Assembly: GCA_016203205.1 (NCBI GenBank)
Contig: JACQNE010000004.1
Coordinates: forward strand, 1 to 49,083
Length of the DNA: 49,083 bases
DNA from: Candidatus Woesearchaeota archaeon
Lineage (GTDB): Archaea; Nanobdellota; Nanobdellia; Woesearchaeales; GW2011-AR9
Direction of reading: 5' to 3'
Shown: piece after piece, positions 18,234-46,265 of the stretch
How positions within the stretch are numbered: position 1 is the stretch's first letter
Layout: every line of letters begins with the position of its first letter
The notes under the pieces: model-generated
Told to the model about the DNA's origin: nothing
Seen by the model: only the letters and a program-made list of their open reading frames with translations
The model's database searches: none
Made by a program: the position numbers and the translations under genes

Positions 18234-19232
18234 ATGGATCTTACACAGACAAATTCAGAACTTGAACGAAAAATAAATGAATTGAGAGATTTACCTAAAA
18301 CCTGGTCAGCTAAAGACCGGGATAATCTTGAGCAGGCGCGCAGAATTGCTGTTGAGCTTAATACCGTTTTGCATACAGCAATACATCACTTCGTTCCCGA
18401 TGTTAATGCCGTTCAGATTGTATTAGAACCTCAAGCTCAAGATGACATCATAAGCATGGTCAGGCGAGAGATTTACTTTAATTTGAATAGACACGATTGG
18501 GAGAGTTATGTAAAATCACGATTCCCTTTAGCCCCTCCTGAACCTTTTGTTTTTAATGCCCATCTTCCATTTAATTTTACGACAGGTACACATGGCAGTG
18601 GAGAACGTGATGCAATTGGTGCCTCGCATACAACTGTTTCATGTTCAGTTTTGGCAAATTTACCTGATCTCTGCCCAGTATTACAATTAAACTTAGAATC
18701 TTCTGACTACGCAGCTATTAAAACCCCCTATTTTCTGATCGGCGATGAAGTGAAATCAGTGAGATTGGTTTCCATTGACGATCGGGATTTTAGTCCGCTT
18801 TATGGTGGATTTAGTTCTGATTTAGGGAAGAGATCTGCGTTGTCTCATTATTTGTTTTTTAAAGGTTTTTCCCGGACATTAATTAATGGAAATTTGATTC
18901 CTGATTGTGAATGGAAAGAAGAAGTAGTGAATATAATGCGTAATGTATCGTACCTATCAACAACTTCTTTTACTGATTTTTACCAGAACAATAGGTGGTC
19001 CGGGTTTGCTGCTCTGCAGGAGCCACAAGGTATAACTTTATATGATGTAAATGATCTTGCTCTGCCCTCAGAATTGGTGGGGGTTGATCTAGGAATACAA
19101 AAATCTTTAGTATGTGCGGCATATGCAGTTTTTTTACAGAGACAAGGTAACGCATCAGAAGAAATAACTGCTTATAGTGGAAAGAAAGCCATTGGGATCC
19201 TGAGCCCGGTTGAGACGAAAAGAAGATTTTGA
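18234..19232 (+). CDS. hypothetical protein (332 aa), partner of the proteasome-beta-like gene
   Basis: Intact ORF in a visibly AT-rich segment. Its stop lies 3 nt before the next ATG. No known motif recognised. Confidence 0.6.
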   Translation: MDLTQTNSELERKINELRDLPKTWSAKDRDNLEQARRIAVELNTVLHTAIHHFVPDVNAVQIVLEPQAQDDIISMVRREIYFNLNRHDWESYVKSRFPLAPPEPFVFNAHLPFNFTTGTHGSGERDAIGASHTTVSCSVLANLPDLCPVLQLNLESSDYAAIKTPYFLIGDEVKSVRLVSIDDRDFSPLYGGFSSDLGKRSALSHYLFFKGFSRTLINGNLIPDCEWKEEVVNIMRNVSYLSTTSFTDFYQNNRWSGFAALQEPQGITLYDVNDLALPSELVGVDLGIQKSLVCAAYAVFLQRQGNASEEITAYSGKKAIGILSPVETKRRF

Positions 19233-19235
19233 AAA

Positions 19236-20006
19236 ATGACTTTACTCTTGAGCTTACGATTTACTGATGGAGTACTCCTTGCTGCAGATTGTTTAACGAT
19301 TTATTATCCAGAAAAATTACCTTTATTAGAAAATAAAATACATTTTGCTATCAATCAAGAACAAGACTCATCTTTTAGCGGCAATGGACTATATCTTGGA
19401 TTCGCTGGTCTTGACATGACTTATGGTGGTTCTATCGATAGATTTTTAGCCCATATCTCTCGTGATTTTACTCGATTAGGACATTTAACAGTGGATCATT
19501 TACTGGATAAGGATTGTTTTCAATTGCAAACAGAAATGAAGAATATCAAACGAGGAAGAGCAATTTGGGAGTTGTCAGATGACGAACATAAAGCCTATTT
19601 TTTATTAGATGATTTGCATGTCACTCGAGCATTTGTTCATACTTCAGAACGATTTTTAACTTATCAAGCTGTACGAATGTCTCCAGGAATTGGCCTGGAT
19701 TTACTTCATATCAAAGAAGGGAAAGTATTAGTTAATCCCCCTTATGCCATTAGTGGTTCTGGTGCAGAGATAGTTAGTCCATTCGTGGAAAGTCATTACC
19801 ATCCTCATATGTCTTCTTCTGAAGCAGTAGATTTAGCCTGCACTACAATGAATAAAGTATTGGAGGATAGCTCAGATTATAAAGGGTATTCATTAGTGCA
19901 TGTTGAAAAAACAGATGACATCTTCTATAAAATATCAACGGCAATTGACATTGAAGCAACAAGTATGCAAAGTATGTGTCTCCGAGAAAATCCTGCTTTT
20001 ATGTAA
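19236..20006 (+). CDS. divergent proteasome beta-subunit / HslV-like Ntn threonine peptidase (256 aa)
   Basis: After Met removal the sequence TLLLSLRFTDGVLLAAD...ENKIHF places Thr1, Asp17 and Lys33 at canonical proteasome spacing. It also has LGFAGL, SGSGAEIVSPFVESHY (compare GSGS..A.G.LE..Y) and MSSSEAVDLA. No propeptide is present. Confidence 0.7.
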   Translation: MTLLLSLRFTDGVLLAADCLTIYYPEKLPLLENKIHFAINQEQDSSFSGNGLYLGFAGLDMTYGGSIDRFLAHISRDFTRLGHLTVDHLLDKDCFQLQTEMKNIKRGRAIWELSDDEHKAYFLLDDLHVTRAFVHTSERFLTYQAVRMSPGIGLDLLHIKEGKVLVNPPYAISGSGAEIVSPFVESHYHPHMSSSEAVDLACTTMNKVLEDSSDYKGYSLVHVEKTDDIFYKISTAIDIEATSMQSMCLRENPAFM

Positions 20007-26726: not shown

Positions 26727-27587
26727 ATGAAAACAACACCTACACAACTCTCCGTCTTTGAAGGTCAGCACATTCGTAAGATCTGGCATAATGACGAATG
26801 GTATTTTTCGGTCATTGACGTCGTTGGCGCTTTGACTGAAAGTAGTAATCCTCGAAATTATTGGAATATGCTCAAAACGCGTGAGGAAGAGCAAGGAATT
26901 GAACTGTACACAAATTGTGTACAATTAAAACTTTTAGCGGATGATGGTAAGATGAGAGAAACAGACTGTGCTAATACTGAAGCTCTTTTCCGTATAATTC
27001 AATCAATCCCTTCCAAGAAAGCAGAACCATTTAAGCTTTGGCTGGCCAAAGTAGGCTACGAACGTGTCCAAGAAATCGAAAATCCAGAATTGGCCCAACA
27101 GCGGATGAAAGAGATATACAAAGCTAAGGGCTATTCTGATAGTTGGATCGAGAAACGTGTGAGAGGAATTGCTATTCGGGATGAATTAACGGATCAATGG
27201 AAAAATCGTGGGACTCAAACCGAAAGAGAGTTTGCGATATTAACAGCTGAGATTTCTAAAGCAACATTTGGTATGACTCCCAATGAATACAAGGATTTCA
27301 AAAACTTAAAGAAAGAGAACTTACGAGACCACATGGATGATATGGAACTCGTTCTGACAATGCTTGGCGAAGCGACAACCACAAGATTAACCACAGAAAG
27401 AGATTCCCAGCAGTTTCCAGAACTAAAGAAAGATGCCAAAGACGGTGGTGATGTTGCCGGAAGCGCCAGAAAAGATATTGAACACAAGCTAGGTAAAAGT
27501 ATTGTTTCCGAAGATAATTTTCTCGAACAATCTGAGGAACAGAAAAGGATTGAACACGGCAAAGGCAAATTATCAAAATCTATATAA
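26727..27587 (+). CDS. BRO-N domain / DinD-like DNA-damage-inducible protein
   Basis: N-terminal LSVFEGQHIRKIWHNDEWYFSVIDVVGAL matches the BRO-N pattern. The central AEPFKLWLAKVGYERV...ELTDQWKNRG region resembles E. coli DinD-type proteins (from memory). Confidence 0.6.
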   Translation: MKTTPTQLSVFEGQHIRKIWHNDEWYFSVIDVVGALTESSNPRNYWNMLKTREEEQGIELYTNCVQLKLLADDGKMRETDCANTEALFRIIQSIPSKKAEPFKLWLAKVGYERVQEIENPELAQQRMKEIYKAKGYSDSWIEKRVRGIAIRDELTDQWKNRGTQTEREFAILTAEISKATFGMTPNEYKDFKNLKKENLRDHMDDMELVLTMLGEATTTRLTTERDSQQFPELKKDAKDGGDVAGSARKDIEHKLGKSIVSEDNFLEQSEEQKRIEHGKGKLSKSI

Positions 27588-35913: not shown

Positions 35914-35924
35914 TCTTATAAATA
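35914..35924 (+). promoter_or_regulatory. TATA box (TCTTATAAATA) for the ClpX-like gene
   Basis: About 26 nt upstream of the ATG at 35945. Confidence 0.5.
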
Positions 35925-35944: not shown

Positions 35945-37615
35945 ATGACCTATCGTTCCCTTGCAGAAGTAATCGTCCAGCAGCTTCCCATTCCACCGTT
36001 TACATATAGGTCTACTTCTTCAGGCATTGAGCAGTTAACTCGGTTCTACCTTCTGCCGATTGTTAACGACACCGTTGATGAAATCACACGCGGGATATTC
36101 TCCGTTCATGGCCAAGTTGGCACTAGTGCGTTCCTATTTTCCTATGATGATCGCCGGTATATCTGTCCTAAACAAGGCGGGCTGACCCTGCTTTCGATAC
36201 ATAATAAATACGATTTTCTTCAACTCCCTCTCCAGAAAACCGAGTTTACTATTAATCTTGAGAAAGATGGTAAGCCTCTTCCGGGTTCTCCTTTTCCAGT
36301 CATGGGTATCGCGGGTAGCTCCGGAATCTTACCATTAACTCTGATATCCAAAGTCCAGGAACGGTGGGAGTGTATACAAGGAATATATAAAGCAGAGAAT
36401 AACTTGTATTCTTGTTATCTTTCGAATGAAGCCGAAGAATTTGCCGCTTTTGTAGAAGAATTTCTGTCCAGAATGGATCAGCCATCGGCTGAGGCAAGTT
36501 CGATCTCATTGTCTTTTCCGGCAGTTCACACCTCTCGAAAGAGTGCTGTAGATCAAGAAGTGGATTGTACCGATCCGCAATCAGTTGTCCGTTATCTTGA
36601 CGATTATGTCATCGGCCAGGAAGAAGCCAAGAAAGATGTTGCCGTCGCTGTTTCCAGCTTAATGATGCGAAAAGCGACAGGTGACGAGACGCTTCCCAAG
36701 ATGAACACCATGCTCATCGGGCCGACAGGAGTAGGTAAGACATACATGATGAAAATTTTAGCAAGGAAAGCAGGAATCCCTTTTGCTTTCACCAAGCTCG
36801 TCGGCAGAAGTGCCGAAGGTTATTATGGACAGAATGTGTCCAAAGTCTTTGATCAAATCCATCTGCAAGCAAAAGGCAAGGAAGAAGATGAAGAAGCACC
36901 GTATGGCATCGTCTTTCTCGATGAAATTGATAAAATAGTCTACGGCGGGGTTGGCGGTAAATTTAGTTTTGGCGAACAGATGCAGAACGAACTGATCGGC
37001 TGGGTTGAAGAAGATCATCTTTCCCGAGCATTGGGCGAAGGAAATTCTAGAACTGCCTATCAGTTGAATACTAAAAATCTCTTATTCGTCGTTGCCGGAG
37101 CATTTCAGGGACGGGGAAAACAGCACGATGGTCTTTCCGAGATCATCGCCAGCCGTCTTGCCGGGGGCAGACAGATCGGGTTTGGCGCAGCACACCCGCA
37201 ACGCGCGGAGAAAGACTCGTTATTGCATCAAGTACAGCCGGAAGATTTGATGTCCTGGGGCTTCTTACCGGAATTGGTCGGCCGGTTTCCCGTCGTCTCC
37301 ACGCTGGATCGACTGACAGAAGAACAGCGTGTCCGGATCTTGACGGAAGCAAAGGATTCTACGTTGGCCGGCCACGTCCGTCTTCTGACCGCGCAAGGTT
37401 ATACTATTAAAGATCCTACCCTTCTGGCACAGCTGATCGTAAGCCGCTGTCCGGCGGAGACCGGAGCAAGAGGACTGGCCTCGGTTTGCAGCCAGCTCTT
37501 TCGGGACGTGCTCTTCGACCCTTCCGCTTTTGCCGATAATAACAAAAATATTTGTATCGACCGATTAACTGGTGCATTGCCGGCAAGCGCAGCTGTGGCT
37601 GTTAGTGAAATGTGA
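35945..37615 (+). CDS. ClpX-like AAA+ unfoldase with a novel ~215-aa N-terminal domain
   Basis: LDDYVIGQEEAKK, Walker A GPTGVGKT, pore loop EGYYGQNV (compare GYVG), Walker B IVFLDEIDKI, IGF loop GGRQIGFGA, sensor/arginine region LPELVGRFPVVSTLDRLTEEQ, and TGARGL. There is no C4 zinc-binding N-domain. Confidence 0.8.
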   Translation: MTYRSLAEVIVQQLPIPPFTYRSTSSGIEQLTRFYLLPIVNDTVDEITRGIFSVHGQVGTSAFLFSYDDRRYICPKQGGLTLLSIHNKYDFLQLPLQKTEFTINLEKDGKPLPGSPFPVMGIAGSSGILPLTLISKVQERWECIQGIYKAENNLYSCYLSNEAEEFAAFVEEFLSRMDQPSAEASSISLSFPAVHTSRKSAVDQEVDCTDPQSVVRYLDDYVIGQEEAKKDVAVAVSSLMMRKATGDETLPKMNTMLIGPTGVGKTYMMKILARKAGIPFAFTKLVGRSAEGYYGQNVSKVFDQIHLQAKGKEEDEEAPYGIVFLDEIDKIVYGGVGGKFSFGEQMQNELIGWVEEDHLSRALGEGNSRTAYQLNTKNLLFVVAGAFQGRGKQHDGLSEIIASRLAGGRQIGFGAAHPQRAEKDSLLHQVQPEDLMSWGFLPELVGRFPVVSTLDRLTEEQRVRILTEAKDSTLAGHVRLLTAQGYTIKDPTLLAQLIVSRCPAETGARGLASVCSQLFRDVLFDPSAFADNNKNICIDRLTGALPASAAVAVSEM

Positions 37616-37798: not shown

Positions 37799-39799
37799 AT
37801 GGAACAAAAGAGGAAGAGGTGTGCTATTTGTCGTTCTATCTCTCGGCTTTCCCCACAAAAACGCGGGCAAGTAACCTTGTTTATCATCATCGGCATCCTG
37901 CTTGTTCTTGCGCTGATCGTGGTTGTGTTTGTGCGCAAGGAATTGCTGACCACCACGCCTGATGAACTGATCACCACCGGCAAAGGGCCGGTAGCCGATT
38001 TTATTGCCATGTGCATCAAGCAATTGGGAGAAGAGGCTCTGCTTAAAGCAGGAGAACAGGGCGGGTATGTGACACTGCCGGCAGAAATTGCCCAGAATGG
38101 CTACGTTCACCTGAAGACCTCGCCTTTTACCGCCGTTCCCTATTGGGCTTACGGCACGACGCGGGCCGTGCCCTCGCTTCCGGCAATCAAATCTCAGATC
38201 GATGCCCACATCCGGCAGCATCTGCGCTCCTGTCTTTTTGATCAGGGCGCGTTCTCCGCAACGAATAACATCATTGAGAAAAGTGAGATCACGGCGGACA
38301 CGAATCTTGCCGAAAATAAAGTAATCTTTAATGTCCGCTGGGATCTGGAAGTTCAGACTAAAGCGGGTGAGAAAATTATCGATCTCCTGGACCACGCCGC
38401 AGAATCGCCGGTGAAGTTCAAGCGCCTGTACGATGCCGCCGTGCGGGTTATCGATGTTGAGCTGCGCGAGCTTAAACTGGAAGACATCACTCAGGACTTG
38501 ATCGCCTTAGAGCATCCCAACGTGCCTGTCGTCGGCTTTGAATTATCCTGCTCACCCAAACAATGGGACGTGGAAACGGTACAACAGACCGTGCGAGATC
38601 TGCTGCGGGTGAATATCGGCCAGCTGCGTGTGCGGGGGACGGATGTCGTTGAATTCCCTGACGAGCTGCCTTATTACCAGAATCATTATGTCTGGGATCT
38701 CGGCGCTGATTTTGCACCCAAGAATGTGGTCATCGATTTCCATTACGATAATAGTTATCCCTTCACGTTTGACGTCCGGCCGCGCAGTGGAAGTACATTA
38801 AAAAGCGCAGCGCTGGCCGCCGGTTCCAATCCGCTGCTTTCTGCATTCTGCGCCCAAAGCTGGAAATTCACCTACGATGTAAGCTATCCGGTTTTGGTTA
38901 CGCTGCGTGACGCGACGACGGGCTACACATTTAAAACTGCCCTGACTGTGCATCTGCAGAAGAACATCCCCAATCGGGAAGAGATCATCCCCGCAGTCGC
39001 ACCACCTTTTATCACTGAAACGTATTCCGACCAGCAATTTTGCGCCACGCGGAATGTGCCGCTGCTGATCACGACCAGCGAGGCAGTTGATAACGGAAAA
39101 GATGTTTCATTCAGCGAGCCGTTAGCTGGCGTGAATATTACCTATAACTGTCTTCAGTATCAGTGTTCTCTCGGCCAGACTGAATATGACTATGCCGGCA
39201 TGGGCGACGTGGCGGCATATCAATTTACCGTTCCTTATTGCGCCAATGCGGTTATCCGCGCCGATAAAGACGGTTATGCAGACGGCTGGACAAATCTGGT
39301 CGCCAAACCAGGCGCGCGTGCTGACATTCAATTGATCCCGACTCTTGCTTTTCCGGCGGCGAATATTTCGCTGGTAAAACATTATCTCAGCGGTGATGCC
39401 CAGTTTAGCGCCGGCATCGCGCTGGCGAAAGACGAGACAACGATCATCAAGCTCAGTTCAGTCCAAAAAGACGTGCGGACAAATCTTCCTGTAGTAGAAA
39501 GCACGGTCGTTCTTTCCTCTGATCTTTCCGAAGATGTCCTGCAAAACCAGCCGCTGAAACTGCTGGCCAAAGCCGATTTCATGTATAATGTTGATATTGC
39601 CGTCTTGAACGGCGAACGCTTCAGCGCCGGCTACAAAGCTAACTGGACTGCATCCTGGCAGGAATTGGAACACGCCCAGCGCCTGACGTTTCATGTTGTC
39701 GGACAGCAAAGCGCATCTGATGCTGACACATTTGGGTTGTATGCCGAATTGGCGGAAAGAAGCGCGGCATTGCCCTTGCCTGAGCTGCATGAAAAGTAA
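37799..39799 (+). CDS. large extracellular protein with class III (pilin-type) signal-like N-terminus (666 aa)
   Basis: A 22-aa basic leader ends in KRGQ, followed by VTLFIIIGILLVLALIVVVFV. The ectodomain has no recognised catalytic motif. Confidence 0.75.
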   Translation: MEQKRKRCAICRSISRLSPQKRGQVTLFIIIGILLVLALIVVVFVRKELLTTTPDELITTGKGPVADFIAMCIKQLGEEALLKAGEQGGYVTLPAEIAQNGYVHLKTSPFTAVPYWAYGTTRAVPSLPAIKSQIDAHIRQHLRSCLFDQGAFSATNNIIEKSEITADTNLAENKVIFNVRWDLEVQTKAGEKIIDLLDHAAESPVKFKRLYDAAVRVIDVELRELKLEDITQDLIALEHPNVPVVGFELSCSPKQWDVETVQQTVRDLLRVNIGQLRVRGTDVVEFPDELPYYQNHYVWDLGADFAPKNVVIDFHYDNSYPFTFDVRPRSGSTLKSAALAAGSNPLLSAFCAQSWKFTYDVSYPVLVTLRDATTGYTFKTALTVHLQKNIPNREEIIPAVAPPFITETYSDQQFCATRNVPLLITTSEAVDNGKDVSFSEPLAGVNITYNCLQYQCSLGQTEYDYAGMGDVAAYQFTVPYCANAVIRADKDGYADGWTNLVAKPGARADIQLIPTLAFPAANISLVKHYLSGDAQFSAGIALAKDETTIIKLSSVQKDVRTNLPVVESTVVLSSDLSEDVLQNQPLKLLAKADFMYNVDIAVLNGERFSAGYKANWTASWQELEHAQRLTFHVVGQQSASDADTFGLYAELAERSAALPLPELHEK

Positions 39800-39813
39800 G
39801 TAAAAAAAAGCAA

Positions 39814-42800
39814 GTGAAAAGAAAAACCAGTGAAAAGAGCAAGTACAAAAAAATAAGTGAGAAAGAGATGGTGAGAAACAATACGATAACTCCTGTGAAC
39901 AGAAAAAAGAAGCAGAACTTTCTCCGCGCCCAAGCGCTATTTGTAATCATGCTCTTTGTCCTTCTTCCGGCGGCTGCCGCTCTGGAAATTTCCGCTGTTT
40001 CGGCGCAGCCCGTGACCTCGACGGGAGCGACGATCAGCTGGACGACTGACGAGCCGGCAGATTCGTTTGTCCATTATGGTACTGATGCGGCCTCATTGAA
40101 GACGGCCGGCGATGCCAAAGCGACGACAAGCCATTCTTTGCAGATCAGCGGCTTGGCGGCAGAAACAAAATATCTTTATTCCGTGGAAAGCCAGGGGGTT
40201 GTTGATGATAATGGCGGGTCTTTGTATTCATTTGAAACGCCGGCGCCGGACACTGCCGCGCCGGCATTAAAAGTTGAATTTCCCGCAAAAGTTGCCGGGA
40301 CGCGCGGGACATTTTCGGGAGAAACAGAAATTGGCGTACAGGTGACGCTGATCCTTAACGGCAAAAAAAGTGGAACTGTGACGGCAGAACCAAGTACGGT
40401 CGATGCCAAGAAAGGATTTTTTACATTCAGTGAAATCATTCTGCAGGAAAATGCCGCAAATACGTTGCTTGTGGAAGCCGTTGATGCCGCCGGCAACAAA
40501 GCGGCAGCTTCCGGAAGCGTCTTTGCCGACGCGAAAAAACCGACGGTAGACGTAAAAAGCATCCCCGCTTTTGTTACGGAAAATTCTTACAAATTAATGC
40601 TGACTGTTTCCGAAGCGGTAAAATATGAAATTTTTGTCAATAACAAATCCGTTTCCAAAGGCGAAGGAGCAAAGATCGATGTGTCTGTGCCGCTGCAGGA
40701 AGGGCAGAATAAGATTGTGCTAAAATTGACGGATGATGCCGGCTGGGTGACTGAAGAAGAAATCACCATCGAAGCCAGCGCCAAGCCGCCGATGATCAAA
40801 GCAGAGATCGAGCGCGGAAAGGAATTCTATGAAGGCCGGGCCACTTCGCCGATCAGCGGGACGACCAGTCCGGGCGCCAAAGTCTATCTCTACGTCTACA
40901 AACCGCAGTTGAATGAATATACACCATCATTTGACCGGCCGCGTCAGACCGTGACGGCCAATGAGAAAGGAGAATTCCGCTTTGCTGATATTTCGTTTAC
41001 TTCTTCCATCGCTGATATCTCACTGGAAAAAGTGGTGCCCAAAGAAATCCCTGCGGACTTGGTGAAGATCAAGATCTTTCCCCTTGGCGAAGGCGTGCAG
41101 CAGCAGACGTATTATGTCTATCTCATCGCTGAGGATAAAGCGGGGAGAAGCGCTTCCTGGCAGCAGCAAGTCTTGATCCAAAGCTGTTTCTCGGGAAATC
41201 TGGACTTTTCGATCGAATCTGTCCCGGAATTTCAGGCGCCGCTGCGTCTTGTTCCCCAGCTCGTCGATCAGGGCAGACAGGACGTGCAGGCAGTATTCAA
41301 GCTGAATTATAACGGCTTGGGCGTGCCCGTCAGAACAGCGGATGGAAAAATCATCGAGCAAGGCGTGCGCGTGACCAATGTCCAGATCGGAGAGGCCTGT
41401 ACGACGGGGATGGCGAAAGATGAGAAATTCAGCCTCGGCTGCAGTCTGCTGCCGAGCCGGCCGACGCGTTCGCTGCCGAATCCCGATCAATCAGCAGTCT
41501 ATGCCAGCTGGACGCTGCATCAGGGAGAAGAACTGAGCGCTGCCAAAGAGAGTTTCTGGAACGAATTTAAAAATCGGCAGGTCGTTTTCCCATTAAAGAT
41601 CCAGGTAAGTTATCAGGAAGTAGAAAGCCGTGATGCGGCAGGAAATGCGGTGTATGGAAAAGCAAAGATCCAGAACAGCTGTACGGACTTAAGTTATTTT
41701 GTGGACATTCCGCTGGATAGCAAGGACATGATCCCCGATTTTCTCGCCGACGAAGGCGTTGATGCGTTGAATTGGACAATCACCCAGATCAATGTTGTTA
41801 CGCCGTACATTGAGAAAGCATACTTAATCACGGGAATTACGGGCATGGCCGCGTTCCTGTTGCGGACAGTCGCGCGCTGGGTGCGCATCTTCGCCACAAA
41901 GCTGGAACAGTATTATTCTATCCTGAACAAGAATGAAACTGGCTGTCGTAATCCAGAACAATACTATCTTGATGATACTTTGAAAGATTGGAAAGAAGCC
42001 GGTGTGGCCAACGGCCCGGATCCTTTGCTGGGTGCGCTCAAGAGCGAACAGGGAAGCGAGGCATGGAATGCTGTTTCTCTCGACAAGCGCTGTCCTTCCA
42101 CGGCGAGCGCCTGGAAATTTGAGGCGATCATGGATCAGGCCTACAAATGGAGTTGGGATCGCGCGTTCTGCCGCGCCGTACCCGCACGCTGGACGGAGGA
42201 TAAGAAGCAAAGTGAAATTGCCTTGCGCGTGGCGGACCAGCAGCAATGCGCTGTGACGGGAAGCGGTGTGCCTTTGGAACTGATTGAAAATTGCAAAGAA
42301 TTTATCTCCAAGAACAAGATCCTTCTCGACACCGGGATCGATCAAGACACGCTGAGCCTCTGCTGGCGGACAAAAGATTCTGACCTGTATGTACGGACGC
42401 CGCAGGTTGATCTAACAACAGCAGAACAGGGAGACCAGGCCAAAGGATTTTATTACCTAACCCATATCGGCAATACCTACACGGTTGCGTCTTCGGCATT
42501 GATCACCTACGGTCCGCGGCTGAAAGTGTACAAACCGCAGGGCGCGCAGACTTTTTTCGTAGCGAAAGATCAGACCTGCACGGCTACGTGCAACAACCCG
42601 CAGAAGCCGGGCTATCAGGCAGACCGCACGTTAGGGAATGCAAATGGCTGTTACGATCAGAAAGGGGGGCTGTTTTATGACGGGTTCGGCGATCCCCTTC
42701 TTCAAGGCCGTTATGCTGCCGGCTACACTAAAGATTGTTTCATCAAAGATGATAATCAGAAAAACATCCTGCGTGATGCTGCCGGCAATCCGCAGCTGCA

Positions 42801-45699
42801 GCAATGCGTCTGCATGCCGGATACGACGCCGAAGAAAATTGCCGACGGGGGAGGAATGCGTGTCGCTCAGGAAAAGAACAAAGATACGGGTGTGGTGGAA
42901 TCCTGGTCATATCAGCAAGACCGGATGTATCAGGAAACGGGCGGCGGGCAAGGAACGTTTTACCCAGCGGAACGTTATTCTGGCGGACGCGATCTCTCCG
43001 GCGCGTTCGGCGCAAATTATCTTCTGGATTATGCGCGTGCAGAAGAAAAAGAGCCAAAAATTAATCCAAATACTCAGATCATCGGCACATTCCAGACCGT
43101 CTGTCTTTCAGGGATCTTGAAGAACTTGAAATTGTTGCAAAGCATGTTAGCGGGCGTGCAGGCCTGTTTAGTGGAAGCAAAATATACCGGTTTGCATGAT
43201 GCGGGGATGTGCAAAACACTGTTTACGCAGCAGGTCTGCGGACTGCTGTATCAAGGAATTGCTTTCCTGGCGAGCAGCAACAGCTGTATGCCGCTGGATT
43301 TCAATTCCGTCGGCAAGGAAGGGCCGATCGCCGATGCCGGAACAATCATCTCCGGCGGTTTCAGCGCAATGACTCAAGCTTTAGATACATCGTTTGAAGA
43401 TGCGCGTAATGAATACGGCAATGCCGCGCTCAATCAATACTTTAAAGGCGGGACGCAGGGTTTTGCCCAATCAATCTGCCTGGCTGCCTTTGGCTATGAC
43501 TTCCCACTGTTCAGCGAAGATTTCCTGCTTGATGCAGCGTATGCTTTTCCGACGAAAACCTTTCCAGTCATCGCGCCGGCGAGCCGGGAATTAAGCAGCT
43601 ATGACCCGACGAAGCAGATGGCCATCTTTAATTATAATATTGGCGGGGCAATCTTTCCCGGTTGTAAAGTCAAAACAGCGACGGTAAAATTGAAATGCAT
43701 CGGTCCGGGCGATCGGGGAAATCCCAACGTGGATGAGTCCTGCGGCGGACAAGGCTGCGACTGCCTGAATGTTCCCGGAACGGGAGCCGCGTTTGAAGCG
43801 CAGAAAGAGCAGCAGCTGGGAACTTGGTTTAATCTGCCGCCGGCGCAGATGTTCTCCATTCCGTTGGAATCGCCGCAGCACGTTACCGCACCATACCGTT
43901 ATGATCATGTCGTCGTGGAATTATTCTTAGATCCGAGCGAGAAGGATAATTATGATAAATGCGTGGAAAGCGAATTCCTGCAGGGGAATAAAGCGGTCTT
44001 TTATTATCCGTTGAGTGATGTTTCTCCGCCGAGCGCGTTGGCGTGTACTGTTGATCTGACGACGGGGCGTTACCAGTGTCCTGAATTGTATTCGCTCTTT
44101 GGCTATGGCGGCGCGTTTTTAGAAGATCCATACGTCTCTTGTTGGAACAAGAAAACTGAGACCTGGATGTCCTGCGATACACCCAACTTGTTTGTCATCG
44201 GCGATGAGATCAAAGTGCGGGCGCACGTGAATACGGATGGAAAAGGACAGTGCTTGAAACGAACGGTGAATCCATTAGTTCCGGGTATATTGGCCGAAGC
44301 GCCGCCGCGCCAGATCGTGCAGAATGTGCAGGGTGCGCAATACGTGAGTGATACTTTGGGGATTGTGCAGGCCGGCATGTTCGGCGGCAGTACACCGATC
44401 ATCACTTTAGCGAAAGAAGAAAGCGGCCTGAATTGCGGCCCGATCACACAGGATTTGACACCAACGGCGTTGACATCCGGTGAAAAAGTAACCTTTGGCT
44501 TTGATGCCGGCAGTTTGCCTAATACTGTTCGGTTGATTGTGCCGGCGACAGTAAATATTAACACGCCCGGTTACAGCCGCAGCGGGAATTATTTAGCGAA
44601 GGGCAGCGTGGTCGATCTGGCTGTTCAGGAGATAAATCTGGTGCAATTCAGCGCGCTTGGCTTTACGTTCCGCAATGTCTTGGGCGGGGTTAATCCGACG
44701 GATCAAAAGAGACAGTGCGTCTATCAGATCATCGAACAGAATGTGTATTCGCAGGGCGTGAACAGCCGCGACTTTACCGTGACGTATCAATTATTGGAGA
44801 AAGATGAAGCCGGCGGCTGCTATCTGGCCAATCAGCCGGTAAAAACATCATTGGGCAAGGCGACGCACGGACAGAAAATCACCATCCAGAAAGAAGAAAC
44901 TGCCGTCAGCGGCTTGCAGCAGAGCTTTGCTACGGGCAATTATCAACAGACTTTGGACTATGCGGTCATCGTCTTGAATCAGCGGCGCGGCGATATGGAA
45001 AATGCGCTGGCCTATTATTATTATATCGCCAGTTTTGTGATGCTGGGCAAGAACAATCCTGCGCAGTTTGAAGGGCAGATCAAAGAGGCGCTGAGTGGAT
45101 TCTTCAATCGGAAATGGGCAGAGCAAGATGCACAGCCGTATCCTGCCGATGTTGCGGCAATTACGGAATATCAGAAGATCAGGAAATATCTTTGTGAAGT
45201 TGACGGGAAGTATGGTTCGGTGAATGCGGGGATGTGTGGGGGAGGTGCAGTATCACCTTCGTCTAGTTCTAGCGCTACCTGCGAAGGAAAAGGTTTCACG
45301 ATCGACATTGGTGATGGTTTCTTGCACAGATGTCTCAGTACGACGCGGGCAGAAGGCTGTCGTCCATCTACCGGCTTGCCCACGAATGAGTATGATATTA
45401 GTAAAGTGCCGACTCCAGCACACAAACAAAAATTAGAAGAGGCTTGTAAAGAAGGTGCGACGGGAGGTACGTTCACAGCGACGGTTACTTTGCCGGATTC
45501 CTCAAATAAATGTTCTTCTGGGGATTATCCAATCAATGATCTTCCTGGTGATAACGCGCCTTATGCGTTTCGATGCGATGGTCAAACTAAAGCGTATTCC
45601 TGCACGAAATCAACGGGCGATACATCTCCCGGCTCAGGCCCTCAGCCATTTACGATCCCCGCATCTTCCGCTGATCTGTTAGCGAGGTGTAAGTCTTGA
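39814..45699 (+). CDS. giant cysteine-rich surface protein (1961 aa) with N-terminal FN3/Ig-like domains
   Basis: Uninterrupted 5.9 kb ORF. Leader ..KKKQNFLRAQ-ALFVIMLFVLLP. FN3-like SAQPVTSTGATISWTTDEPADSFVHYG...YLYSV. Ig-like repeats are followed by an internal hydrophobic segment and a very Cys-rich 1250-aa C-terminal part. The start is the GTG at 39814 or the ATG at 39868. Confidence 0.85.
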   Translation: MKRKTSEKSKYKKISEKEMVRNNTITPVNRKKKQNFLRAQALFVIMLFVLLPAAAALEISAVSAQPVTSTGATISWTTDEPADSFVHYGTDAASLKTAGDAKATTSHSLQISGLAAETKYLYSVESQGVVDDNGGSLYSFETPAPDTAAPALKVEFPAKVAGTRGTFSGETEIGVQVTLILNGKKSGTVTAEPSTVDAKKGFFTFSEIILQENAANTLLVEAVDAAGNKAAASGSVFADAKKPTVDVKSIPAFVTENSYKLMLTVSEAVKYEIFVNNKSVSKGEGAKIDVSVPLQEGQNKIVLKLTDDAGWVTEEEITIEASAKPPMIKAEIERGKEFYEGRATSPISGTTSPGAKVYLYVYKPQLNEYTPSFDRPRQTVTANEKGEFRFADISFTSSIADISLEKVVPKEIPADLVKIKIFPLGEGVQQQTYYVYLIAEDKAGRSASWQQQVLIQSCFSGNLDFSIESVPEFQAPLRLVPQLVDQGRQDVQAVFKLNYNGLGVPVRTADGKIIEQGVRVTNVQIGEACTTGMAKDEKFSLGCSLLPSRPTRSLPNPDQSAVYASWTLHQGEELSAAKESFWNEFKNRQVVFPLKIQVSYQEVESRDAAGNAVYGKAKIQNSCTDLSYFVDIPLDSKDMIPDFLADEGVDALNWTITQINVVTPYIEKAYLITGITGMAAFLLRTVARWVRIFATKLEQYYSILNKNETGCRNPEQYYLDDTLKDWKEAGVANGPDPLLGALKSEQGSEAWNAVSLDKRCPSTASAWKFEAIMDQAYKWSWDRAFCRAVPARWTEDKKQSEIALRVADQQQCAVTGSGVPLELIENCKEFISKNKILLDTGIDQDTLSLCWRTKDSDLYVRTPQVDLTTAEQGDQAKGFYYLTHIGNTYTVASSALITYGPRLKVYKPQGAQTFFVAKDQTCTATCNNPQKPGYQADRTLGNANGCYDQKGGLFYDGFGDPLLQGRYAAGYTKDCFIKDDNQKNILRDAAGNPQLQQCVCMPDTTPKKIADGGGMRVAQEKNKDTGVVESWSYQQDRMYQETGGGQGTFYPAERYSGGRDLSGAFGANYLLDYARAEEKEPKINPNTQIIGTFQTVCLSGILKNLKLLQSMLAGVQACLVEAKYTGLHDAGMCKTLFTQQVCGLLYQGIAFLASSNSCMPLDFNSVGKEGPIADAGTIISGGFSAMTQALDTSFEDARNEYGNAALNQYFKGGTQGFAQSICLAAFGYDFPLFSEDFLLDAAYAFPTKTFPVIAPASRELSSYDPTKQMAIFNYNIGGAIFPGCKVKTATVKLKCIGPGDRGNPNVDESCGGQGCDCLNVPGTGAAFEAQKEQQLGTWFNLPPAQMFSIPLESPQHVTAPYRYDHVVVELFLDPSEKDNYDKCVESEFLQGNKAVFYYPLSDVSPPSALACTVDLTTGRYQCPELYSLFGYGGAFLEDPYVSCWNKKTETWMSCDTPNLFVIGDEIKVRAHVNTDGKGQCLKRTVNPLVPGILAEAPPRQIVQNVQGAQYVSDTLGIVQAGMFGGSTPIITLAKEESGLNCGPITQDLTPTALTSGEKVTFGFDAGSLPNTVRLIVPATVNINTPGYSRSGNYLAKGSVVDLAVQEINLVQFSALGFTFRNVLGGVNPTDQKRQCVYQIIEQNVYSQGVNSRDFTVTYQLLEKDEAGGCYLANQPVKTSLGKATHGQKITIQKEETAVSGLQQSFATGNYQQTLDYAVIVLNQRRGDMENALAYYYYIASFVMLGKNNPAQFEGQIKEALSGFFNRKWAEQDAQPYPADVAAITEYQKIRKYLCEVDGKYGSVNAGMCGGGAVSPSSSSSATCEGKGFTIDIGDGFLHRCLSTTRAEGCRPSTGLPTNEYDISKVPTPAHKQKLEEACKEGATGGTFTATVTLPDSSNKCSSGDYPINDLPGDNAPYAFRCDGQTKAYSCTKSTGDTSPGSGPQPFTIPASSADLLARCKS

Positions 45700-46265
45700 T
45701 GAACACAAAAGGAACAGGCGTCATTGAACTGATCATCTTTTTGATCATCGTCGTCGTAATCAGCGCGACCGTATTATTATTGATTAAATTTAATGTAGTG
45801 GAAGTAAAAGAGGACGGTGCGCAGGAGCCGGTCTTAAATGTCGAGTTTATCCCATATGCCCGCGAAGGAGTACTTGTCGTGAAAGAGTTCTCGTTCTGCC
45901 GTTCGGTTGATGAAGCGTATGATTGTCTTGGTGCGGGAAATCAGTTTGTTTTTGGCCAGCCCGTCTATTATCGTTTTGGCGTGGAGAGCAGCACGTATCA
46001 AGGGCAGATTAAAGTGGTGAAAAATTATCGCATCAAAGGGCCGTCAGGAGAAGTTTTATTAGACGTGGGAACAGATCAGCAGTCTCAATTTGATTCTGTA
46101 AGCAATAATGTTCAAGAAGTTGTTTTGTTCAAAGATTATTTTGTCGTTCCGGCGGGATTTCCGGCCGGAGAATATACGTTTGAATTGGTGGTAGAGAATC
46201 CATTGTTGACGAAACAGGCAACATTGATACAGAGGTTTGTTATTGGTAGTGGGGTGGAAGGATGA
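45699..46265 (+). CDS. type IV pilin-like protein (188 aa)
   Basis: The N-terminus MNTKG-TGVIELIIFLIIVVVISATVLLLI has a short basic leader, a Gly at the putative cleavage site, Glu at +5 and a hydrophobic helix. The ATG overlaps the upstream TGA by 1 nt (the ORF track lists the TTG at 45696). Confidence 0.7.
   Translation: MNTKGTGVIELIIFLIIVVVISATVLLLIKFNVVEVKEDGAQEPVLNVEFIPYAREGVLVVKEFSFCRSVDEAYDCLGAGNQFVFGQPVYYRFGVESSTYQGQIKVVKNYRIKGPSGEVLLDVGTDQQSQFDSVSNNVQEVVLFKDYFVVPAGFPAGEYTFELVVENPLLTKQATLIQRFVIGSGVEG

What the first reader, a model, noticed from the sequence alone, without database searches (positions are those of the whole stretch)
35945..37615. ClpX-like unfoldase retaining an IGF docking loop but with a novel N-domain, in an archaeal context next to PAC2
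The C-terminal ~340 aa are an unmistakable ClpX/HslU-clade AAA+ module: GPTGVGKT, a GYYG pore loop, IVFLDEIDKI, LPELVGRFPVV and TGARGL. It keeps the IGF tripeptide (nt 37175-37183, GGRQIGFGA) that bacterial ClpX uses to dock onto ClpP. The bacterial C4 zinc-binding N-domain is replaced by about 215 aa (35945-36590) with no motif I recognise. ClpXP is generally regarded as absent from archaea, and no ClpP is visible in this window. The gene sits directly downstream of a PAC2 proteasome-assembly chaperone and 16 kb from the HslV-like orphan protease. This raises the question of which peptidase, if any, it partners.
Basis: partly seen in the sequence, partly recalled or inferred. Interest (0 to 1): 0.65.

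Follow-up and report, generated by a model that had tools for sequence, protein, structure and literature searches.

The report
Archaeal ClpX-like unfoldase, new N-domain
This gene encodes a ClpX-type protein-unfolding motor from a tiny groundwater archaeon (Woesearchaeota). It has swapped the bacterial zinc-finger head for a new all-beta domain but kept the loop that bacterial ClpX uses to dock onto its protease, so an unidentified partner protease is predicted in a lineage thought to lack Clp proteases.

Summary
ORF 35945..37615 (+, 556 aa) has a complete ClpX-type AAA+ module at residues ~209-545 (best PDB matches are ClpX, E~1e-48). Its IGF (nt 37175-37183) aligns with E. coli ClpX I268-G269-F270.

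The gene is not an artefact or an isolated oddity. At least 105 representative clusters (50% identity) share the same two-part architecture. Species-representative genomes carrying it are almost all DPANN archaea, mainly Woesearchaeota, plus one CPR bacterium.

In a rough HslU-rooted NJ tree the family is one clade, sister to bacterial ClpX and not nested within it. It has lost the zinc ribbon (0/105) and the RKH loop (3/105). An IGF-type tripeptide remains in 82/98 members.

No ClpP was found in the window or in 483 kb flanking 41 family loci. Whole genomes could not be searched. PAC2 adjacency is lineage-local synteny, and the HslV-like protein has no detectable homologue, so neither identifies the partner.

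Best reading: a hexameric unfoldase that docks through IGF onto a ring peptidase, probably a ClpP-type one encoded elsewhere. The partner is unverified.

The parts
35916..35923 (+). Putative archaeal TATA box (TTATAAAT), centred ~25 nt upstream of the ATG. This would imply a leaderless or near-leaderless transcript.
   Evidence: Read directly from the sequence. The spacing matches the established archaeal TATA position of about -26. Inference only; not tested.
35945..37615 (+). ClpX-like AAA+ unfoldase gene, 556 aa plus stop codon.
   Evidence: ORF. In-frame stop 9 nt upstream. Best PDB sequence matches are ClpX, E~1e-48. Best structural matches are also ClpX.
35945..36478 (+). Novel N-terminal domain, aa 1-178: a short helix, 12 antiparallel beta-strands and a C-terminal helix. 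Proposed role: substrate or adaptor recognition.
36479..36568 (+). Variable linker predicted to be disordered, aa 179-208.
   Evidence: pLDDT below 50 for residues 178-203 in the full-length model. Length and sequence vary across the family.
36569..37579 (+). ClpX-type AAA+ module (large and small domains), aa 209-545.
36719..36742 (+). Walker A motif, GPTGVGKT.
   Evidence: Conserved across the family (GP[ST]G[VST]GKT).
36818..36829 (+). Pore-1 loop GYYG. Canonical ClpX has GYVG.
   Evidence: Most family members keep an aromatic residue at the second position. The commonest forms are GYVG (34), GYKG (18) and GYIG (7).
36908..36934 (+). Walker B motif, IVFLDEIDK.
36983..37012 (+). Family signature QNELIGWVEE. 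It replaces canonical ClpX QQALLKxxEG. The pore-2 loop just upstream and the RKH loop just downstream both differ from ClpX.
   Evidence: RKH is present in 106/111 canonical ClpX but only 3/105 family members.
37175..37183 (+). IGF tripeptide of the peptidase-docking loop.
   Evidence: Aligns with E. coli ClpX I268-G269-F270. [ILVMF]-G-[FYL] is retained in 82/98 full-length family members, although the loop flanks vary in length and sequence.
37265..37297 (+). LPELVGRFPVV box containing the arginine finger. It is equivalent to E. coli ClpX IPEFIGRLPVV.
   Evidence: The assignment of this arginine as the finger residue comes from established ClpX knowledge.
37460..37477 (+). Sensor-2 motif, TGARGL.

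Best explanation
The gene encodes a member of a previously undescribed, mainly DPANN-archaeal (chiefly Woesearchaeota) clade of ClpX-family AAA+ unfoldases.

Shown:
- The AAA+ module has every catalytic and pore element of ClpX.
- The family is a separate clade, sister to bacterial ClpX.
- The bacterial C4 zinc ribbon is replaced by a ~175-aa all-beta domain with no known structural relative.
- The RKH loop, which recognises the ssrA tag in bacteria, is lost, and the pore-2 loop differs from that of ClpX.
- The IGF docking tripeptide is retained in about 84% of very divergent members.

Inferred:
- The protein forms a hexamer and recognises substrates or adaptors through the new N-domain.
- It pulls substrates through the central pore using the pore-loop tyrosine and ATP hydrolysis.
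- It docks through its IGF loops onto the hydrophobic clefts of a ring peptidase. The most likely partner is a ClpP-type (S14) peptidase encoded elsewhere in the genome and not adjacent to this gene.
For: Identity of the motor:
- ClpX is the best match by sequence and by fold.
- Walker A and B, the arginine finger, sensor-2 and the pore tyrosine are conserved across the family.

A real, sizeable family:
- At least 105 of the top 150 representatives from a 1.84-billion-protein library carry the same N-domain fused to this module.
- 18 species-representative genomes carry it, 17 of them labelled archaeal and mostly Woesearchaeota.

Phylogeny:
- An NJ tree rooted on E. coli HslU places the family as one clade, sister to bacterial ClpX.
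- Identity to bacterial ClpX from many phyla is flat at 34-39%.

IGF loop under constraint:
- 82/98 family members keep [ILVMF]-G-[FYL], although the loop flanks vary.
- Two clusters that deleted the loop carry IGF at the extreme C-terminus (..PSRIGF..KTIGFL).
- The IGF loop is the established ClpP-docking element (PMC7547079).

N-domain:
- The fold is confident but has no known relative, and there are no invariant polar residues. This fits a binding role rather than a catalytic one.

Lineage context:
- Woesearchaeota are reported to carry other bacterial-type proteostasis systems, GroEL/ES and DnaK-DnaJ-GrpE (PMC8204110).
Against: - No ClpP was found in the window or in 483 kb flanking 41 family loci. 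The same HMM hit 51 ORFs in 80 bacterial clpX loci.
- No conserved neighbour of any kind was found across the loci.
- ClpP is conventionally regarded as absent from archaea. Five full-text searches pairing ClpX, ClpP or Clp protease with DPANN lineage names, plus term searches inside four DPANN genomics papers or their supplements, found no report of ClpX or ClpP in DPANN.
- The pore-2 loop, which is the second ClpP contact in ClpX, differs in sequence and length.
- The NCBIfam ClpX equivalog score is below its cutoff.
- Whole genomes could not be searched, so the partner is unverified.
Confidence: 0.5

Rival explanations
1. It is a stand-alone unfoldase or remodelling chaperone with no peptidase partner, as in the ClpP-independent functions of mitochondrial ClpX and yeast Mcx1. 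The IGF loop would be retained for a structural reason or for another binding role.
For: No ClpP was found in any of 41 flanking regions or in the window, and no conserved neighbour exists. ClpX has documented ClpP-independent roles (PMC7547079). 16/98 family members lack a strict IGF-type tripeptide (four keep [SA]-G-F), and the pore-2 loop differs from that of ClpX.
Against: 84% of members keep a specific hydrophobic-G-aromatic tripeptide inside an otherwise hypervariable loop, in a family with only ~41% mean internal identity. In one subclade the motif reappears at the C-terminus. Both patterns are hard to explain unless something binds the motif.
Confidence: 0.25
2. It docks onto a non-ClpP peptidase, either the archaeal 20S proteasome or a proteasome/HslV-like ring. 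That would make it a Clp-type motor rewired to the proteasome system.
For: 19/98 family members end exactly in hydrophobic-Tyr-X (LYG, LYK, LYN), which is the form of the proteasome-activator HbYX motif. Only 1/111 canonical ClpX do. A proteasome subunit is part of the single-copy core of Nanobdellota (bioRxiv 10.64898/2026.05.13.725050). PAC2 lies upstream in the window's subclade. The window also encodes an Ntn hydrolase with an intact-looking active site (Thr2, Asp18, Lys34, GSG).
Against: The window protein itself ends ..AVAVSEM, with no HbYX. The LYG motif is homologous to the internal I-Y-G of E. coli ClpX and sits at the end of a predicted helix with no flexible tail. PAC2 adjacency is restricted to one subclade. 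The HslV-like protein has no detectable homologue anywhere. An internal IGF loop cannot supply the C-terminal carboxylate that HbYX docking uses (established knowledge).
Confidence: 0.15
3. It is a routine recent bacterial clpX transfer, or a bacterial contaminant contig in an archaeal bin.
For: One family member lies on a genuine CPR bacterial contig, next to bacterial-type rplJ-rplL (L103). DPANN are known to acquire bacterial genes.
Against: The window carries TFIIB, GatD, TYW3 and PAC2. The gene order is conserved in several independent archaeal assemblies. Identity to all sampled bacterial ClpX is flat at 34-39%, and the family is a separate, internally very divergent clade. The zinc ribbon is missing in 0/105 members against 109/111 canonical ClpX. 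No clpP is adjacent.
Confidence: 0.03
4. The N-terminal ~210 aa are an annotation artefact, caused by a separate upstream gene or a wrong start codon.
For: In one MAG (L083) the orthologue is called as a 90-aa fragment plus a 432-aa fragment.
Against: The window has one uninterrupted ORF with a stop codon 9 nt upstream of the ATG. A sibling assembly has the intact 578-aa form (P0124). At least 105 representatives show the same fusion. The domain folds confidently.
Confidence: 0.01

Closest known systems
Bacterial ClpX (for example E. coli ClpX; PDB 6WR2, 6PO1, 3HWS)
   Same: It has the same AAA+ large and small domain fold. Walker A and B, the arginine finger, sensor-2 and the pore-1 Tyr loop are all present. 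The IGF loop sits at the homologous position. The C-terminal [IL]-Y-G element is also homologous.
   Different: There is no C4 zinc-ribbon N-domain; a ~175-aa all-beta domain of unknown fold takes its place. The RKH loop is absent. The pore-2 loop region is shorter and different in sequence. The family signature Q-x-E-L-I-G-W replaces QQALLK. Identity is 34-39%. The NCBIfam equivalog score is below its cutoff. The gene sits in archaeal genomes with no adjacent clpP.
Mitochondrial CLPX and yeast Mcx1
   Same: These are ClpX-clade proteins with an N-terminal extension. They set a precedent for ClpP-independent function.
   Different: The sequence match is weaker (E~1e-34), the N-terminal region is different, and the organisms are not eukaryotic.
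HslU
   Same: It belongs to the sister family of ClpX within the same AAA+ clade. It docks onto a proteasome-like peptidase through a terminal peptide.
   Different: The match is much weaker (101 bits against a 362-bit cutoff; PDB E~1e-22 over the N-terminal part only). There is no I-domain insertion. The family groups with ClpX when HslU is used as outgroup.
Archaeal proteasomal ATPases (PAN, Cdc48/VAT)
   Same: These are archaeal hexameric unfoldases. A subclade of this family ends in an HbYX-like Hb-Y-X motif.
   Different: They belong to a different AAA+ clade and match only weakly (17-35 bits). There is no coiled-coil/OB or Cdc48 N-domain. The window protein has no HbYX.

Membership tests
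ClpX (AAA+ unfoldase of ClpXP) | ClpX-type AAA+ module with Walker A and B, arginine finger, sensor-2 and a pore-1 aromatic loop | tested here: met
   Motifs located. Aligned to E. coli ClpX. PDB E~1e-48. Foldseek top hits are all ClpX.
ClpX (AAA+ unfoldase of ClpXP) | Score at or above the curated equivalog cutoff (NCBIfam NF003745 or TIGR00382) | tested here: not met
   208 bits against a 359-bit cutoff, and 188 bits against a 371-bit cutoff.
ClpX (AAA+ unfoldase of ClpXP) | N-terminal C4 zinc-binding domain (zf-C4_ClpX) | tested here: not met
   No PF06689 hit. 0/105 family members have two CxxC pairs at the N-terminus, against 109/111 canonical ClpX.
ClpX (AAA+ unfoldase of ClpXP) | IGF (or LGF) ClpP-docking loop | tested here: met
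   IGF at aa 411-413 aligns with E. coli residues 268-270. 82/98 family members keep the motif.
ClpX (AAA+ unfoldase of ClpXP) | RKH loop, and the pore-2 loop that contacts ClpP | tested here: not met
   RKH is absent here and present in only 3/105 family members, against 106/111 canonical ClpX. The pore-2 region differs in length and sequence.
ClpX (AAA+ unfoldase of ClpXP) | A ClpP partner encoded in the same genome, often adjacent | tested here: inconclusive
   No ClpP in the window or in 483 kb around 41 family loci, against 51 hits in 80 bacterial clpX loci. The rest of the genomes could not be searched with these tools.
ClpX (AAA+ unfoldase of ClpXP) | Phylogenetic position within ClpX or next to it, rather than with HslU | tested here: met
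   In an NJ tree rooted on E. coli HslU the family is one clade, sister to bacterial ClpX. The method is rough (NJ on BLOSUM62 distances with a single outgroup).
HslU | Curated equivalog score, I-domain insertion and an adjacent HslV partner | tested here: not met
   101 bits against a 362-bit cutoff, with three separate matched stretches. PDB HslU matches cover only residues ~210-300. No HslV gene is adjacent.
Proteasome-activating AAA ATPases (PAN/Rpt, Cdc48) | Classic-clade AAA module, and a C-terminal HbYX motif on a flexible tail | tested here: not met
   PAN and Cdc48 models and PDB chains score only 17-35 bits. The window protein ends ..AVAVSEM. An HbYX-like ending occurs only in a subclade of 19/98 members.

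The most novel reading that the evidence does not exclude
These archaea have no ClpP. The family would then be a Clp-type motor that uses its conserved IGF element to dock onto a non-ClpP peptidase such as the archaeal 20S proteasome. In some subclades the docking element would be a C-terminal IGF or an HbYX-like LYx end. This would be a hybrid between the bacterial Clp system and the archaeal proteasome system, with substrates chosen by an N-domain of a new fold.
Probability: 0.15. Interest if true: 0.85.

Novelty: new variant of a known kind. Interest (0 to 1): 0.6.

Why it matters
ClpXP is textbook-absent from archaea, where regulated proteolysis is attributed to 20S with PAN or Cdc48, and to LonB. 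This finding matters for three reasons.

- A diverse, mainly archaeal ClpX clade keeps the peptidase-docking IGF motif under constraint. That predicts either an overlooked archaeal ClpP or a new unfoldase-peptidase pairing. Either outcome can now be tested directly with a defined protein family.
- The N-domain is a confidently predicted fold with no known relative. It is a candidate new substrate- or adaptor-recognition module for AAA+ proteases.
- The distribution, DPANN archaea plus one CPR bacterium, adds a proteostasis example to the gene exchange reported between these two ultrasmall groundwater lineages.

Tried and rejected
1. The first genome-collection scan used the whole-protein alignment. 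Generic ClpX motifs flooded it and it returned only bacterial clpX loci. I reused those loci to build a ClpP HMM and as a positive control.
2. A word-index homologue search with the N-domain alignment returned nothing, not even the family's own members. That was a tool limitation. The exhaustive profile search plus a local N-domain HMM recovered the family.
3. HslV-like protein as partner: rejected as a general partner. It has no homologue in 5.8 billion proteins and none in any family locus.
4. PAC2 as a functional neighbour: rejected. Adjacency is confined to the window's own subclade, and other genes are inserted between the two in L083 and L089.
5. A conserved operon partner: none was found. 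All-versus-all BLAST and phmmer of neighbours in 41 loci recovered only the window subclade's local synteny.
6. Viral origin: no family member in IMG/VR.
7. N-domain as a built-in protease: unlikely, because it has no invariant polar residues.
8. Complementary distribution of the IGF loop and the HbYX-like ending: not seen. Roughly 3 of 12 truly IGF-less members have an LYx ending, against 16 of 82 IGF-bearing members.
9. Literature: no paper on ClpX or ClpP in DPANN was found. The supplements of four DPANN genomics papers hold no clpP or clpX entries as stored.
10. Genome-wide ClpP presence could not be tested. The collections can only be scanned by motif, and any ClpP motif is swamped by bacterial hits.

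Full report
**Observation.** The window has a single ORF at 35945..37615 on the + strand, encoding 556 aa. An in-frame TAA lies 9 nt upstream of the ATG. A TTATAAAT element at 35916-35923 sits about 25 nt upstream, where an archaeal TATA box would be expected for a leaderless transcript (the promoter is an inference). IGF is at nt 37175-37183.

**Match to ClpX.**
- Pfam sees only generic AAA_2 and AAA domains.
- The NCBIfam ClpX equivalog is the best family, at 208 bits and E 2e-61. This is below its 359-bit cutoff. HslU follows at 101 bits.
- Against PDB sequences, the top hits are ClpX chains at E~1e-48 over residues 209-539. HslU is at about 1e-22.
- An AF2 model of the full protein finds ClpX as the best structural match.
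- An alignment with E. coli ClpX, taken from NC_000913, puts IGF on I268-G269-F270. The same alignment shows no RKH loop, a shorter and different pore-2 region, and QNELIGWVEE where ClpX has QQALLKLIEG.

**Organism.**
- The window encodes TFIIB, GatD, TYW3, a GCD14-type tRNA methyltransferase and PAC2, so it is archaeal.
- The closest relatives of the protein carry NCBI names 'Candidatus Woesearchaeota archaeon'.
- Gene order around the gene is shared with several independent assemblies, one of which is labelled Woesearchaeota (L083, L089, L090, L108, L118, L119). The shared order is MPG, methyltransferase, RrnaAD, TraB-like, PAC2, ClpX-like, a 666-aa protein, a ~1,950-aa surface protein and a 189-aa protein.
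- The DNA occurs in groundwater metagenome runs.

**A family, not a one-off.**
- A word-index search found only eight close relatives, followed by a sharp drop to canonical bacterial ClpX at 182 bits.
- An exhaustive profile search of 1.84 billion representative proteins was much richer. A local HMM of the N-domain hits 105 of the proteins retrieved, typically 520-620 aa long.
- A scan of one genome per GTDB species with the family-specific motif QxE[LM]IGW[LVF]E returned 18 loci. Seventeen carry archaeal labels: Woesearchaeota, 'archaeon', Micrarchaeota, ainarchaeum, Euryarchaeota SM23-78, and some bins labelled Methanosarcinales.
- One locus (L103) is a genuine CPR bacterial contig. The family gene there is followed by bacterial-type L10 and L7/L12 genes.
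- No member is in IMG/VR viral contigs.

**Phylogeny.** I built an NJ tree of the AAA+ module, rooted on E. coli HslU. The family, comprising 85 N-domain members plus 23 fragments or divergent sequences, forms one clade. That clade is sister to the clade holding 37 sampled bacterial ClpX and E. coli ClpX. Mean identity is 41% within the family, 69% among the bacterial ClpX, and 32% between the two groups. The window protein is 34-39% identical to bacterial ClpX regardless of phylum. The tree is rough, but nothing suggests a recent transfer from a particular bacterial group.

**N-domain.**
- Modelled alone on a 34-sequence alignment, residues 1-182 give pLDDT 88 and pTM 0.84. The fold is a short N-terminal helix, twelve antiparallel strands and a C-terminal helix. 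A variable, disordered linker follows.
- Foldseek against the PDB gives nothing better than E 0.11 and TM 0.20.
- Pfam finds nothing consistent across the 34 members, and a profile search of PDB sequences finds nothing.
- Only a Gly and a Pro are invariant. This argues for a binding module rather than an enzyme.
- The domain replaces the zinc ribbon, which is present in 109/111 canonical ClpX and 0/105 family members.

**Docking elements.**
- An IGF-type tripeptide is present in 82/98 full-length family members, against 111/111 canonical ClpX. The surrounding loop varies from a few residues to more than 30.
- Four of the 16 exceptions keep [SA]-G-F.
- Two clusters (P0129, P0166) deleted the loop but end in ..PSRIGF and ..KTIGFL.
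- Separately, 19/98 members end exactly in hydrophobic-Tyr-X, against 1/111 canonical ClpX.
- That LYG is homologous to the internal I-Y-G near the end of E. coli ClpX, so the protein simply stops there.
- The window protein has neither an HbYX-like end nor a C-terminal IGF.

**Partner search.**
- I built a ClpP HMM from 36 ClpP ORFs found next to bacterial clpX in the loci. It hits 51 ORFs in those 80 bacterial loci. It hits none in the window or in 483 kb around 41 family loci, even at E 0.1 with filters off.
- Clustering of neighbours found no gene that recurs beyond the window's own synteny group.
- PAC2 is upstream only in that subclade. In L083 and L089 other genes are inserted between PAC2 and the ClpX-like gene.
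- The proteasome-like ORF 19236..20006 looks catalytically intact, with Thr2, Asp18, Lys34 and GSG. It has no homologue other than itself in the 5.8-billion-protein collection and none in any family locus.
- Whether ClpP is encoded elsewhere in these genomes could not be tested.
- Literature searches found no report of ClpX or ClpP in DPANN. One paper documents bacterial GroEL/ES and DnaK systems in Woesearchaeota (PMC8204110). Another lists a proteasome subunit in the Nanobdellota single-copy core.

**Interpretation.** The architecture and family membership are shown. The mechanism is inferred from ClpX: a hexameric, ATP-driven translocase, with substrate or adaptor choice made by the new N-domain. 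Loss of the RKH loop, which handles ssrA-tag recognition in bacteria, fits organisms without tmRNA tagging. That point rests on established knowledge and is an inference.

The retention of IGF in a fast-evolving family is the strongest clue that a ring peptidase with ClpP-like clefts is bound. I rate a ClpP-type partner encoded elsewhere at about 0.5. I rate a partner-less remodelling role at about 0.25, and docking to 20S or another non-ClpP peptidase at about 0.15. Recent transfer or contamination, and annotation artefact, are effectively excluded.

**Verdict.** This is a real and apparently undescribed variant of a known kind of machine. It is of moderate to high interest.

Noticed in passing
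window 19236-20006 (+): This is a 256-aa proteasome-beta/HslV-like Ntn hydrolase with no propeptide. Thr follows Met1 directly, and Asp18, Lys34 (beta-subunit positions 17 and 33) and a GSG at residue 174 are present. About 45 extra residues lie between Lys33 and GSG. It has no homologue other than itself in the 5.8-billion-protein collection. The 332-aa ORF that ends 4 nt upstream (18234-19232) has no Pfam or PDB match.
   Followed up: partly
P0129 (L087/L088 10001-11707) and P0166: In two family clusters the internal IGF loop is deleted, but the extreme C-terminus carries IGF (..AQPSRIGF, ..KRKTIGFL). The docking motif appears to have moved to a terminal tail.
   Followed up: partly
family members P0004, P0005, P0007, P0130-P0133 and others (for example L084, L086, L094): 19 of 98 family members end exactly in hydrophobic-Tyr-X (LYG, LYK, LYN), the form of the proteasome-activator HbYX motif. 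Only 1 of 111 canonical ClpX do. The motif is homologous to the internal I-Y-G of E. coli ClpX. The window protein lacks it.
   Followed up: partly
L103 122-3047: A family member sits on a genuine CPR (Vogelbacteria) bacterial contig, directly upstream of bacterial-type rplJ (L10, 162 aa) and rplL (L7/L12). The family therefore crosses the DPANN/CPR domain boundary.
   Followed up: partly
L083 9564-11299: In MAG GCA_053533455.1 the orthologue is split into a 90-aa N-terminal fragment (P0126) and a 432-aa remainder (P0003). The sibling assembly GCA_053534075.1 has the intact 578-aa gene (P0124). The split is either a frameshift or an assembly error.
   Followed up: partly
window 37799-46265 (+): Three downstream genes are conserved with the ClpX-like gene in all close relatives: a 666-aa protein with an N-terminal membrane segment, a 1,961-aa giant protein with fn3/Ig-like domains, and a 189-aa protein. 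Their function is unknown. They are typical of DPANN surface proteins.
   Followed up: no
N-termini of family members (A2, A4): Many members begin with a conserved M-[GS]-[LI]-F-[TS]-F motif followed by S-x-L-E-K-A-L. The window protein and its nearest relative start about 12 residues later and lack the motif.
   Followed up: no
representative-search hits P0186, P0163, P0212, P0219, P0248, P0251, P0255, P0270: Other unusual ClpX-like architectures appeared in the profile search. One is a 1,238-aa protein with tandem modules, and several proteins are 800-940 aa long. A separate group of 525-600-aa proteins lacks this N-domain and ends in LPxxY[KS][IF].
   Followed up: no
window 26727-27587 (+): This ORF encodes a BRO-N domain protein, a domain common in viruses and mobile elements. 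A weak Bro-N hit also lies about 450 bp downstream of the family gene in L084.
   Followed up: no
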